A DNA stretch of 11,735 bases from a virus (taxonomy: Duplodnaviria > Heunggongvirae > Uroviricota > Caudoviricetes): the IMG/VR virus record IMGVR_UViG_2537562192_000017. One strand, 5' to 3'. Shown here one piece after another: positions 1 to 3,000 of the stretch. The position numbers were made by a program. Position 1 is the stretch's first letter. Each line of letters opens with the position of its first letter.

Positions 1-3000
1 TTAGTCTTTATCTGCCGGACTTAAGGTCACAGAAGAGAGATAATTCAGCAGGGCGATATCGTTCTCGACACCCAGCTTCATCATCGCAGATTTCTTCTGG
101 CTACTGATGGTTTTAATACTGCGGTTCAGCTTTTTAGCGATCTCGGTCACCAGGAAGCCTTCCGCAAACAGGCGCAGAACTTCACTCTCTTTTGGCGAGA
201 GACGCTTGTCACCGTAACCACCAGCACTGATTTTTTCCAACAGGCGAGAAACGCTTTCCGGGGTAAATTTCTTCCCTTTCTGCAGCGCAGCGAGAGCTTT
301 CGGCAGATCGGTCGGTGCACCTTGTTTCAGCACGATCCCTTCGATATCCAGATCCAATACCGCACTAAGAATCGCCGGGTTGTTGTTCATGGTCAGAACA
401 ATGATCGACAGGCTTGGGAAATGGCGCTTGATGTACTTGATTAAGGTAATGCCATCGCCGTACTTATCGCCAGGCATGGAGAGATCGGTAATCAACACAT
501 GCGCATCCAGTTTCGGCAGGTTGTTGATCAGTGCTGTAGAGTCTTCAAATTCGCCGACAACATTCACCCACTCAATTTGCTCAAGTGATTTGCGAATACC
601 GAACAAGACTATCGGATGGTCATCGGCAATAATTACGTTCATATTGTTCATGTACTTGTACCTATGTATTAACTATTTGATTTTAAAAATATATTCTATG
701 CTTTGTTTAGTCGTTGGGGCACCTGTGGGACATAAGTACATAGCTTTCTGTTTAGTACTTCTACCTGGGACTGGTTATTGTCTTTCATCCATGCACCGTA
801 AACATTGTAAACCATCTGGGCATTCGCATGTCCCATCTGGTTGGCTATGAAGTTTGGATTTGCTCCGGCAGTTAAAGCCCAGCAAGCATAAGTATGCCGA
901 GACTGATACGCTTTTCTATGGCGAATTTTTGCTCGTTTTAATGCAGATTCCCATGTTCTGTTGATGGATGTTACGGCATAATGAACTCCTGAGTTACCTG
1001 TGCGATCTAATATCTGAGGATTGAAAACAAAGCTGCATGAGTGAGTGCTTGTCCGGCCATACTCTCGCAGCTTTACTTCTATCTGATATTGTTTACCAAG
1101 CCTGGTTAATGTCGCCTGATTTTTTAATACGTCAATTGCTGGCTGTATGAGTTGTATTACCCTGTTTGTTCCTGCATCTGTTTTGGGTAGTGTAAATTCC
1201 TTTGTCTGAGTGTAATTCCTTTTGACGGTCAAGGTACCCGCTTCCAGATCGATATCCTCCCATGCCAGCCCACACAGTTCGCCATGCCGCATCCCGGTAT
1301 ATACAGCCAGCGACCAGAAATTTTTAGTTTGCTGGTGGTGGCACGCATCAATCAGTCTGGCAAACTCATCTTTTGTTAGTGGATCGGGAGGTGTTTTCGC
1401 TCTTTTCAGTGATGGAAGCTCACTGAAAGGGTTTTTGCCTATATACCCATTGTTTGCCGCAAAACGGAACATCCCGGAGATAATTGTCATATAGCTATTT
1501 ACAGTAGGTACACTACGACCTTTAATAGGCTTCCTCTGATTTTTTCCTGGCAACTGATATCCCGTTAATAATTCTTTACGAAAAATGAGAACATCTTCCT
1601 GTGTAATTGATGATGCCAGTTTGTTCCCTCCAAGGCAGTCAAGGCAATTTCGGATAGCTGATTTGTATCTGACCATGGCATTTGCTGTTATTTCCATTTT
1701 CTTAAGCTCAAGCCATTTTTCCGAAAGTGCCTTAATGGTTATCTCTTTTTTTCCCAGACCAAAATGTTTCAGGTTAGGGGAATTAGGGAATTGCGCGGCG
1801 TAGTCGAAGCTCCCCATTCTTATTGCAAAACAAACGGAAGTGCGAAGTTCACCTGCGATCTTCCGGTTTTTGGCGGTGTCAGGAACACCGAGGTTTTCTC
1901 TGACACGTTTGCCGTTATAGTGAAACCATATGCGGAGTGATCCACCATGGTTTTCAACGCCTGTCGGGTATGATGCGTTACTCATTAAACCTCCCAGACG
2001 TCCAGGAGCATTAACAGGTTAACCGGAACTTGCATTTTTGGCACCTGGTTGTTTCTGGTTTTCGATCCAGCGCATAATTTCCTCAATGTTGTATACACAT
2101 TCACTGAAAGGCCCGGGCTCTCCTTCTGCTGCGTAATGACGGTATTCTTTCCCCAGTAACCAGGATTTTTTTCTTGCTCTGGCAATGGTTCCTGATTTCA
2201 GTCCAGTTGCAGCAATAAGGGTTCTTTCTGTGCACCATTTGCTGGGCGTTATCTGATAGATGATTGTTTCCATTCCTGACTCACACTATCTTCAGGCCAC
2301 GGCAGTGGCACCACACGTCAAACATTCGCTTTACAACTTCACGGCAGTAGAAGCCGTGAGCATCTCTGGTTAAATCGTATCGGTACCCGTATCTGAGTCG
2401 TATCCATATTTCAAACTCGCGATTCACGACTTATTCTCCTGCTGTCTTTATGCCAGTTCATCCGGTTGCGCTGGGGCCCAGGCCTTCCGTGGCCTGTATT
2501 TGCGGCGTTTTCTGGCTTCAATGCGTATCTTTGTCACCCTGACTGGCTTTGGTTCGTGCCGGAACACTTTGTTTCTGATATTACGCCGTGTATTCATCAT
2601 CCAGATAAAACGCTGGGTATGGTCGCATCCGTCATCAACGGTAATTACTGTGCGGACCAGTTCATCGTTAATATCAACCATTTCACCCATTCACTGAGCC
2701 CTCATACGCGAATTTCGTGGCTTCCATCAGTTGCGTCCATACCCATTCAAGAAATTGTGCGTTTTCTCCTGAGCGGTCATATTCATCGACGCTGCGGGGC
2801 TTGATGGTCGCCAGTAGTGGCACAATCCGGTACTTCATCTGTTCGGTTAACTTGTCCGGTACAAGTCGCCAGCCGTTATATTTCGATGGAACATGGTGGT
2901 ATTCAGCCAGGAAGCGTCGTATATCGTTTTTCATTTCCTCGCATGAGTTCTGATCATGAAGTGCAGCGGAAAGCCAGCGTCCGATATATTCAGGGATTCG

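What the first reader, a model, noticed from the sequence alone, without database searches (positions are those of the whole stretch)
1..1985. Prophage integrase ends 44 bp upstream of the rcsB start codon, where rcsD is expected
In E. coli K-12, rcsD lies directly upstream of rcsB on the same strand, and rcsB also has its own promoter inside the rcsD coding sequence. Here the sequence upstream of an otherwise canonical rcsB is a phage int gene (stop at 696-698) with only an AT-rich 44-bp spacer. The prophage therefore seems to be inserted at or in the 3' end of rcsD, displacing the native rcsB promoter region and possibly truncating rcsD. That could rewire Rcs signalling (capsule, biofilm, motility).
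Basis: partly seen in the sequence, partly recalled or inferred. Interest (0 to 1): 0.55.

Follow-up and report, generated by a model that had tools for sequence, protein, structure and literature searches.

The report
Prophage inserted at rcsB start codon
A lambda-like prophage of the Shiga-toxin-phage type has integrated site-specifically at the start codon of the E. coli envelope-stress regulator gene rcsB, which leaves rcsD and rcsB intact but separates rcsB from its own promoters and ribosome-binding site; this is a rare and apparently undescribed attachment site for an otherwise well-known kind of integrase.

Summary
On the minus strand a 429-aa tyrosine integrase (1985->696) stops 44 bp before a canonical rcsB (651->1), where 5359 of 5374 complete E. 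coli genomes have rcsD.

The prophage (~65 kb) is not in rcsD. Comparing the empty site with both prophage junctions gives an 11-bp identity block, TACATGAACAA (window 654-644), that covers the rcsB ATG. rcsD (890 aa) is intact at the far junction and the rcsB coding sequence is regenerated exactly. Everything upstream of position -3 of rcsB is now phage DNA, so the native Shine-Dalgarno sequence and the PrcsDB and PrcsB promoters lie ~65 kb away.

The reconstructed attP has a lambda-type core: ACAAGTACA - TGAACAA - CGTACTTGT, with a perfect IHF consensus beside it. The integrase arm-binding domain, Xis and the P arm are nearly identical to those of yecE- and yehV-integrating Stx phages. Only the core and the core-binding and catalytic domains differ, which indicates a modular switch of specificity.

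The same junction occurs in 14 of 5426 complete E. coli genomes, one of which carries stx2b. It also occurs in Trabulsiella guamensis, next to an integrase 80% identical to this one.

The effect on rcsB expression is inferred, not shown. I rate it a new member of a known kind, of moderate interest.

The parts
1..651 (-). rcsB coding sequence (216 aa), complete. Codons 1-3 lie in the recombination core.
   Evidence: RcsB equivalog, 467.7 bits. Identical over 651 nt to rcsB of non-lysogen EC11.
635..643 (-). Bacterial half-site B' (TATGAACGT), which is rcsB codons 3-6. This is an inferred weak core-type site.
   Evidence: Position relative to the overlap region. It matches the C and C' half-sites at 4/9 and 3/9 positions respectively. 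Inferred.
644..654 (-). 11-bp identity block TACATGAACAA shared by attB, the near junction and the far junction. It contains the rcsB ATG (651-649). The inferred 7-bp overlap (strand-exchange) region is TGAACAA at 650-644.
   Evidence: Three-way comparison of the empty site (L002), the near junctions (window, L001, L005, L006) and the far junctions (L003, L004, L007, L014).
651..659 (-). Core-type Int site C (ACAAGTACA). Bases 655-659 are phage-derived. In attP it forms an 8/9 inverted repeat with C' (CGTACTTGT) across the 7-bp overlap.
   Evidence: reconstructed attP.
660..663 (-). Phage-supplied Shine-Dalgarno-like AGGT, 8 nt before the rcsB ATG. The native site has AGGT 10 nt before the ATG.
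   Evidence: AGGT is conserved before the core in two diverged relatives, L008 and L019. Function is inferred.
670..682 (-). Perfect IHF consensus AATCAAATAGTTA (WATCAANNNNTTR), in the position of lambda's H' site.
   Evidence: It is the only perfect match in the 11.7-kb window. Perfect matches sit at the same place in L008 and L019.
680..709 (-). Weak sigma-70-like promoter match: -35 TAAACA at 709-704, 18-nt spacer, -10 TAAAAT at 685-680. It points into rcsB and is only a candidate.
   Evidence: 9 of 12 matches, and the only hit in window positions 500-2500. The count is not above the shuffled expectation.
652..695 (-). 44-bp spacer between the int stop and the rcsB ATG. It is the core-proximal part of the P' arm of the int-proximal junction (attL in lambda nomenclature).
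   Evidence: The yecE- and yehV-type relatives have their att repeat 39 and 37 bp after the int stop.
696..1985 (-). Tyrosine integrase, 429 aa, made of an arm-binding domain, a core-binding domain and a catalytic domain.
2019..2273 (-). Excisionase (XisR/DUF1233 type), 84 aa.

Best explanation
Window 1-2273 is the integrase-proximal junction (attL in lambda nomenclature) of a ~65-kb lambdoid prophage of the Stx-phage type. The prophage integrated by lambda-type site-specific recombination into an attB that straddles the rcsB start codon, in the 16-bp gap after rcsD.

Shown: attB, attL and attR share the 11-bp block TACATGAACAA. rcsD is intact at the far junction, and rcsB is regenerated base for base at the near junction. 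All sequence upstream of position -3 of rcsB is phage DNA.

Inferred from sequence: strand exchange occurs in a 7-bp overlap, TGAACAA, flanked in attP by the inverted core-type sites ACAAGTACA and CGTACTTGT, with an IHF site in the P' arm. The integrase belongs to the family used by yecE- and yehV(mlrA)-integrating Stx phages. It keeps their arm-binding domain, their Xis and their P arm, and carries a different core-binding and catalytic part that matches a different core.

Inferred consequence: the rcsDB operon is split. rcsB loses PrcsDB, PrcsB, its native Shine-Dalgarno sequence and any coupling to rcsD. It must now be transcribed by read-through from the co-oriented xis-int unit (no terminator is predicted in between), from a weak promoter-like element in the int 3' end and spacer, or from both. 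It would be translated from a phage-supplied AGGT 8 nt upstream of the ATG. I expect rcsB expression to be retained but regulated differently and probably at a different level.
For: - Junction mapping: searches give the same 11-bp block at the empty site (L002), at the near junctions in the window and three genomes (a fourth differs by one SNP on the phage side), and at four far junctions, including a human-gut metagenome contig.
- rcsD is full length in the lysogens.
- Occupancy is 14/5426 and the site is empty in 5359/5374.
- The attP dyad is 8/9 around a 7-bp spacer.
- The only perfect IHF consensus in the window lies 11 bp from the C core site, and it is conserved in L008 and L019.
- Int residues 1-80 are 97-100% identical to the yecE- and yehV-type integrases, while the remainder is 41-92% identical in 40-residue windows.
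- The xis and int 5' DNA is ~90% identical to those phages.
- The P arm is ~95% identical to that of Stx2_12E129_yecE over more than 240 bp, starting ~13 bp beyond the core.
- Those relatives carry their att repeat 37-39 bp after the int stop, compared with 41 bp here.
- An 80%-identical integrase in Trabulsiella guamensis sits before rcsB at the same core.
- The lysogens have different chromosomal backgrounds (ato operon present or absent) and different prophage cargo and backbones. This argues for repeated integration.
- No terminator is predicted between int and rcsB.
- The two native rcsB promoters and autoregulation at PrcsDB are described in the review PMC5651002 (the data are from Salmonella).
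Against: - No recombination experiment, attP-containing free phage or circular form was found. There were 0 hits in IMG/VR, and the only metagenome hit is a lysogen junction.
- The exact cleavage positions are inferred from symmetry alone.
- The bacterial half-sites match the phage half-sites weakly (B matches C at 6/9; B' matches C at 4/9 and C' at 3/9).
- The promoter-like match is weak, and the count is not above chance for the region (1 found, 3.7 expected).
- The AGGT is only 4 nt and could be part of Int recognition or a coincidence.
- No expression data exist, so the direction and size of any change in RcsB level are unknown.
- One of the 14 lysogens has rcsB disrupted by an IS3-family element, so rcsB is not indispensable in this context.
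Confidence: 0.87

Rival explanations
1. One reading: the prophage is inserted in the 3' end of rcsD, truncating it or replacing its C-terminus, as phages 21 and e14 do at icd.
For: The integrase sits where rcsD should be, and only 44 bp separate it from rcsB.
Against: The crossover block lies after the rcsD stop codon. rcsD is 890 aa, ends with the native ...SYVKSLL*, and is followed by the native 16-bp spacer at the far junction in L003, L004, L007 and L014.
Confidence: 0.02
2. The anatomy is the same but the consequence is different. The insertion acts as a polar knock-down: rcsB is essentially silent in lysogens, making them Rcs-off strains (more motile, no colanic acid induction, impaired GadE/RcsB acid resistance).
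For: Both native promoters and the native ribosome-binding site are removed. The only local promoter match is weak. Prophage int genes are usually transcribed at low levels in stable lysogens (general knowledge). One lysogen has additionally lost rcsB to an IS. rcsB loss-of-function alleles are reported as common in STEC (PMC10562709).
Against: rcsB is intact in every other lysogen examined, and its product is identical to the common E. coli RcsB wherever it was checked (window; annotated as WP_001061917.1 in three genomes). RcsB is also intact in the Trabulsiella lysogen. An SD-like AGGT at good spacing is supplied by the phage and conserved in diverged relatives. There is no terminator between int and rcsB. 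None of this is decisive over short evolutionary times.
Confidence: 0.3
3. The juxtaposition is not site-specific integration. It would instead be an assembly error, an inversion between prophages, or a one-off rearrangement inherited clonally.
For: The window starts exactly at the rcsB stop codon, so its boundary was set by a prediction tool. The lysogens are rare (14/5426).
Against: The junctions are identical in independently finished genomes from the USA, Germany, Norway, Japan and Canada, and the far junction is also present in a metagenome contig. The host backgrounds and prophage backbones differ. A short direct repeat is present at both ends, and the empty site is precise. A diverged integrase occupies the same site in another genus. 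The P arm is homologous to a documented attP.
Confidence: 0.01

Closest known systems
Int-Xis-attP module of yecE-integrating Stx phages (e.g. Stx2_12E129_yecE LC567842, phage EH297, ASU11)
   Same: Integrases of 428-429 aa, 73% identical overall. Residues 1-80 (the arm-binding domain) are 97-100% identical. The xis and int 5' DNA is ~90% identical. The P arm is ~95% identical over more than 240 bp. The att repeat lies ~40 bp after the int stop.
   Different: The core sequence differs (TACATGAACAA here; the annotated yecE repeat copy next to int reads CCGTCACATTAACTGCGTGGA). The core-binding and catalytic domains are only 44-92% identical in 40-residue windows. The target is the rcsB start codon rather than yecE.
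yehV (mlrA)-integrating Stx phages (VT1-Sakai/Sp15, YYZ-2008)
   Same: The same integrase family (71% identity, arm domain 97-100%) and the same layout. Both target a regulator of the curli, biofilm and capsule network. Insertion in mlrA is known to abolish csgD-dependent biofilm formation (PMC5931665 abstract).
   Different: The mlrA insertion interrupts the coding sequence and inactivates the gene. Here both flanking genes stay intact, and only the operon linkage and the 5' control region of rcsB are replaced.
Bacteriophage lambda Int/attP paradigm
   Same: A heterobivalent tyrosine integrase with an N-terminal arm-binding domain, an adjacent xis, a 7-bp overlap flanked by inverted 9-bp core-type sites, and an IHF site in the P' arm next to the core. 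Sequence homology to solved lambda Int structures is weak. The architecture of lambda attP is from established knowledge.
   Different: Only distant sequence similarity (E about 1e-4 to lambda Int in the PDB). The Pfam arm domain is Arm-DNA-bind_2. The P' arm must overlap the int 3' coding region, because only 41 bp separate the stop codon from the core. No sib-like or terminator structure was found beyond the core.
Phage 21 / e14 integration in icd, and other prophages that regenerate the gene they enter (from established knowledge; not tested here)
   Same: The phage carries a copy of the gene end it displaces, so the host coding sequence stays intact after integration.
   Different: Those phages replace a 3' end and so leave expression signals untouched. 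Here the regenerated part is the first 8 nt of the 5' end, so the whole 5' control region is exchanged for phage DNA.

Membership tests
Lambda-type (heterobivalent) phage tyrosine integrase | C-terminal tyrosine-recombinase catalytic domain with the R...K...HxxR...H...Y residues | tested here: met
   Pfam Phage_integrase, 73.7 bits. PHROG 1 integrase, E=2.6e-83. The alignment to Tn1549 Int (6emy) places TGMRHGE (R233), SRHTYA (R363/H364), MGHAN (H386) and VYNVYG (Y396) on the catalytic motifs. The residue assignments come from the alignment only.
Lambda-type (heterobivalent) phage tyrosine integrase | N-terminal arm-type DNA-binding domain | tested here: met
   Pfam Arm-DNA-bind_2, residues 7-70, 84.3 bits.
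Lambda-type (heterobivalent) phage tyrosine integrase | Adjacent excisionase gene | tested here: met
   An 84-aa DUF1233/XisR excisionase, 33 bp upstream of int and on the same strand.
Site-specifically integrated prophage (attL/attR) | Short direct repeat at both ends that is present once in the empty site | tested here: met
   TACATGAACAA is present at both junctions and once in EC11.
Site-specifically integrated prophage (attL/attR) | Recurrent occupancy of the same site in unrelated hosts, with precise empty sites elsewhere | tested here: met
   14 E. coli genomes of at least two backgrounds, one gut metagenome contig and Trabulsiella guamensis. The site is empty in 5359 genomes.
Site-specifically integrated prophage (attL/attR) | attP core with inverted core-type sites around a 6-8-bp overlap, plus an accessory IHF site | tested here: met
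   ACAAGTACA / TGAACAA / CGTACTTGT, matching at 8/9. A unique perfect IHF consensus at 670-682. This is sequence-level evidence only.
Site-specifically integrated prophage (attL/attR) | Demonstrated integration and excision (attP x attB recombination) | not testable with these tools
   No attP-form sequence was found in IMG/VR or in metagenomes. This needs PCR or a recombination assay.
yecE/yehV-type Stx-phage Int-Xis-attP family | Shared arm-binding domain, Xis and P-arm sequence | tested here: met
   Arm domain 97-100% identical. xis and int 5' DNA ~90% identical. P arm ~95% identical over more than 240 bp.
yecE/yehV-type Stx-phage Int-Xis-attP family | Integration into yecE or yehV | tested here: not met
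   The target is the rcsB start codon, and the core sequence is unrelated to those phages' att repeats. It is therefore a third specificity within the family.
Stx-converting phage | Carries stxAB between Q and the lysis genes | tested here: not met
   The prophage of the strains matching the window (2015C-3121, 2012EL-2448) has HsdM/HsdS cargo there and no stx. The sister prophage in 04-00955 carries stx2b at that position.
RcsB response regulator | Full-length match to the RcsB equivalog model and the expected rcsC neighbour | tested here: met
   NF008098, 467.7 bits against a cut-off of 235, residues 1-216. rcsC is convergent downstream in the lysogen genomes.

The most novel reading that the evidence does not exclude
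The phage's att module has been shaped to take over rcsB rather than merely land next to it. On this reading, the phage-side sequence supplies a working Shine-Dalgarno sequence (AGGT, conserved in three diverged integrase modules) and perhaps a promoter. rcsB then becomes the last gene of the phage's xis-int transcription unit. RcsB dosage would be set by prophage state, for example a burst on SOS induction or a fixed level that no longer responds to RcsB autoregulation at PrcsDB. That would change capsule, motility, acid resistance and susceptibility to other phages. It would amount to lysogenic conversion by promoter replacement of a global regulator, in strains that include Stx2b-producing STEC/UPEC hybrids.
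Probability: 0.2. Interest if true: 0.6.

Novelty: new member of a known kind. Interest (0 to 1): 0.36.

Why it matters
RcsB is the output regulator of the Rcs envelope-stress phosphorelay, which controls colanic acid capsule, flagella, curli and biofilm, and acid resistance together with GadE. Normally rcsB is co-transcribed with rcsD and also has its own promoter inside rcsD. RcsB represses the operon promoter (review PMC5651002; the data are from Salmonella).

In these lysogens a 65-kb prophage cuts that linkage at the start codon without damaging either gene. This gives a natural experiment in which RcsB supply is uncoupled from RcsD and from its own autoregulation. The site is used by an Stx2b phage in a clinical O2:H6 STEC/UPEC hybrid strain, so it should be added to the list of Stx-phage integration sites used in typing schemes. 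It may also affect stress and colonisation phenotypes.

The locus is a clean example of how lambdoid integrases change target. The arm-binding domain, Xis and the P arm are kept, and only the core together with the core-binding and catalytic domains is exchanged.

Tried and rejected
1. A search for the free-phage attP form. The exact pattern across the predicted attP core gave 0 hits in IMG/VR. The single metagenome hit was a lysogen far junction, not attP.
2. A sib- or tI-like terminator beyond the core that integration would separate from int. No terminator was found on the relevant strand, and the RNA fold was no better than shuffled sequence (z=-0.06). I dropped this idea.
3. Arm-type sites from repeated k-mers in the reconstructed attP. 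Only chance-level 9-mers were found (ATGGGACAT inverted; ATCGACGAA direct in the P arm). I do not claim any as arm sites. The P-arm homology to the yecE phage is the stronger evidence.
4. Rfam scan of the whole window: no family reached its gathering score.
5. Literature. None returned a paper naming rcsB or rcsD-rcsB as a phage attachment site. The hits mention rcsB only as a virulence or regulatory gene. The paper most likely to mention the site is not held in the library, so prior description cannot be excluded: Gati et al. 2019, J Clin Microbiol, on ST141 STEC/UPEC genomes including 04-00955.
6. Extended homology between the phage-side and native upstream sequences. None was found beyond the shared AGGT, and that requires a 2-nt shift (by inspection).
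Full report
**1. Observation**

On the minus strand the window encodes the following features:
- a 429-aa ORF at 1985->696, with stop TAG at 698-696;
- a 44-bp A+T-rich spacer at 695-652;
- a 216-aa ORF at 651->1.

The first ORF has Pfam Arm-DNA-bind_2 (residues 7-70) and Phage_integrase domains and matches PHROG 1 integrase. An alignment to a solved tyrosine recombinase places its TGMRHGE, SRHTYA, MGHAN and VYNVYG motifs on the catalytic residues. An 84-aa XisR/DUF1233 excisionase lies just upstream at 2273->2019.

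The second ORF is RcsB. It matches the NCBIfam equivalog at 467.7 bits against a cut-off of 235, and its 651 nt are identical to rcsB of the non-lysogenic strain EC11. A 301-bp probe across the native rcsD-rcsB junction is uninterrupted in 5359 of the 5374 complete E. coli genomes that match it. rcsD is therefore the expected neighbour.

**2. Where the phage is inserted**

Megablast of window 1-2100 against complete genomes finds the whole int-rcsB junction in 14 of 5426 genomes. In all the others homology stops 3 nt upstream of the rcsB ATG.

I fetched a lysogen (2012EL-2448: near side L001, far side L003), the window's best match (2015C-3121, L004), further lysogens (L005, L006, L007) and an empty site (EC11, L002). 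The three kinds of sequence read as follows:
- empty site: ...ctgTAGcaaggtagcctatTACATGAACAAtatgaacg...
- far junction: ...ctgTAGcaaggtagcctatTACATGAACAAcgtacttgttgcattttaaaaatcg...
- near junction (window 661 downward)...ataggtacaagTACATGAACAAtatgaacg...

The shared block is the 11-bp TACATGAACAA (window 654-644), which contains the rcsB start codon (651-649). The rcsD stop codon and the native 16-bp spacer stay with rcsD at the far junction. rcsD there is 890 aa, with one substitution relative to EC11. At that junction the first three rcsB codons run into phage DNA as an 8-codon ORF, MNNVLVAF*.

The two copies of the block are 65.3 kb apart in 2012EL-2448 and 65.7 kb apart in 2015C-3121 (coordinates). 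The prophage therefore does not truncate rcsD. It splits the rcsDB operon at the rcsB start codon and regenerates the rcsB coding sequence exactly.

**3. Anatomy of the attachment site**

I joined the phage sides of the two junctions to reconstruct attP:

...aaaATCAAatagTTAatacatAGGT ACAAGTACA TGAACAA CGTACTTGT tgcattttaaaaatcgacg...

It contains a 9-bp inverted repeat (8/9) around a 7-bp spacer, which is the lambda arrangement of core-type sites C and C' around a 7-bp overlap. The 11-bp identity with attB consists of the last 4 bp of C plus the whole overlap. This is what is expected if overlap identity is required for recombination. The bacterial half-sites are weaker: B matches C at 6/9, and B' matches C at 4/9 and C' at 3/9.

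The only perfect IHF consensus (WATCAANNNNTTR) in the 11.7-kb window is at 670-682, 11 bp from C. About 0.55 matches are expected in the whole window, so one within ~40 bp of the core is unlikely by chance. The cleavage positions and the IHF binding are inferred from sequence, not shown.

**4. Family relationship and the specificity switch**

No phage in the INPHARED collection carries this integrase. The best matches are the integrases of yecE-integrating Stx phages (73% identity) and of yehV/mlrA-integrating Stx phages (71%). At the DNA level only xis and the first ~300 nt of int match them, at about 90% identity.

A windowed protein comparison shows residues 1-80 at 97-100% identity and the remainder at 41-92%. 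In those phages the annotated att duplication lies 39 and 37 bp after the int stop, compared with 41 bp here.

Most tellingly, the phage DNA just beyond the core at the far junction is ~95% identical to the P arm of Stx2_12E129_yecE. This holds over more than 240 bp, starting ~13 bp past the core. The module therefore shares the arm-binding domain, Xis and the P arm with known Stx-phage modules. It differs in the core and in the integrase domains that read the core. This both validates the junction as a genuine attP-derived site and explains how the new target arose.

**5. Recurrence**

- The 14 lysogens come from the USA, Germany, Norway, Japan, Canada and elsewhere.
- They differ in chromosomal background. 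The ato operon is present next to rcsC in 2012EL-2448 and absent in JNEC-KY174.
- They differ in how much of the window's early region they share, from 30% to 100%.
- They differ in cargo. 04-00955 carries stx2b; that strain is listed among the O2:H6 STEC strains tested for urovirulence in PMC3958309. The others carry only a type I HsdM/HsdS pair at that position.
- A human-gut metagenome contig carries the far junction.
- IMG/VR holds isolate-derived prophage predictions with a 100% identical integrase that end at the same base as this window.
- In the one-genome-per-species collection, Trabulsiella guamensis ATCC 49490 has an 80%-identical integrase directly upstream of rcsB at the same core...ccacAGGTGCAAATACATGAACAAtatgaacg....
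- A 78%-identical integrase from a metagenome ends ...acAGGTACAAATAC at its contig end.

This is therefore an integrase lineage with a stable rcsB-start specificity, not a one-off event.

**6. Consequences for rcsB (inferred)**

rcsB is normally transcribed from PrcsDB and from PrcsB, and RcsB represses PrcsDB (review PMC5651002; the data are from Salmonella). In the lysogen both promoters and the native Shine-Dalgarno sequence (AGGT, 10 nt before the ATG) remain with rcsD, 65 kb away.

Several features now precede rcsB:
- the co-oriented xis-int unit, with no predicted terminator before rcsB;
- one weak sigma-70-like match (-35 TAAACA at 709-704, -10 TAAAAT at 685-680), which is the only hit in window positions 500-2500 but is not above the shuffled expectation;
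- an AGGT 8 nt before the ATG (660-663), which is conserved in the 80% and 78% relatives even though the rest of the Trabulsiella spacer has diverged.

My best reading is that rcsB is still expressed but from phage-derived signals. It would thus be uncoupled from rcsD, from PrcsB and from autoregulation, and possibly raised when the early-left operon is derepressed.

The main rival is that rcsB is largely silenced. The evidence cannot separate the two. rcsB is intact in all the other lysogens examined and encodes the common RcsB wherever that was checked. One lysogen has lost it to an IS3-family insertion, and rcsB loss-of-function alleles are said to be common in STEC.

**7. Comparison with what is known, and novelty**

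Mechanistically this is ordinary lambda-type integration, and by sequence it belongs to the yecE/yehV Stx-phage integrase family. Two things differ.

The first is the target, which is the rcsB start codon. The second is the consequence. The related yehV phages inactivate mlrA by interrupting it (PMC5931665), and phages such as 21 and e14 regenerate a 3' end (established knowledge). This phage regenerates a 5' end and so exchanges the gene's entire control region while leaving two intact genes.

Ten full-text searches found no paper naming this site. One likely source, Gati et al. 2019, is not held, so prior mention cannot be excluded. The genomes themselves are public and annotated.

**8. Verdict**

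I rate the locus a new member of a known kind. Interest is moderate (0.36). It is a tidy, well-supported new att site with a plausible but untested regulatory effect on a global regulator in some STEC strains.

Noticed in passing
window ~3960-6400 (tnpA 4035-4436, tnpB 4433-4780, transposase 4830-6233, all + strand): An ISEc8 (IS66-family) element interrupts a DUF5406 phage gene. Relative to the finished RefSeq genomes, the window has four single-base deletions, all inside the transposase gene (window ~5262, 5278, 5279, 6174). They break the 512-aa ORF into frameshifted pieces. These may be sequencing errors in the window's source or real decay.
   Followed up: partly
window 1 (first base): The window begins exactly at the rcsB stop codon. 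IMG/VR prophage predictions with a 100% identical integrase end at the same base. The window therefore looks like a prophage prediction whose boundary overshoots attL by one host gene.
   Followed up: partly
L003:3771-7763 (2012EL-2448), L004:3552-7544, L007:42406-46398. All lie outside the window, at the rcsD-side end of the prophage.: A 1330-aa S6-family serine-protease autotransporter (SPATE-like, with a TIGR01414 beta-barrel) is encoded as prophage cargo about 550 bp from the far att junction in several lysogens. I did not determine which SPATE it is.
   Followed up: partly
L006:18413-19989 (strain 04-00955, NZ_CP035498): The sister prophage at the same rcsB site carries three tRNA genes and stxA2b/stxB2b between Q and the lysis genes. 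The rcsB start is thus an Stx2b-phage integration site. The window's own prophage, and that of JNEC-KY174, have only a type I HsdM/HsdS pair there.
   Followed up: yes
L005:4450-6411 (strain FHI_NMBU_10): In one lysogen rcsB itself is split by an IS3-family insertion after about 39 codons, so that strain is an rcsB null in addition to carrying the prophage.
   Followed up: partly
L008:1511-2208 (Trabulsiella guamensis ATCC 49490): An 80%-identical integrase lies directly upstream of rcsB at the same TACATGAACAA core in another genus. The contig starts 226 bp before int, so the rest of that prophage is not visible.
   Followed up: partly
L009, L010, L012 (Leclercia, Scandinavium, and a MAG labelled Sphingobacterium): Integrases 64-69% identical to this one are followed by a different, mutually similar downstream sequence (...ttaggttagg.aacctaaacctgcat...). 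This is presumably yet another att specificity in the same family. The target was not identified.
   Followed up: no
window 2683-3585, 7514-8287 and 8085-8645 (- strand): Early-region ORFs of 300, 257 and 186 aa have no Pfam domain and match only PHROGs of unknown function (24401, 1515, 1886). The 257-aa and 186-aa ORFs overlap by about 200 nt as listed, so the start of one of them is probably further downstream.
   Followed up: no
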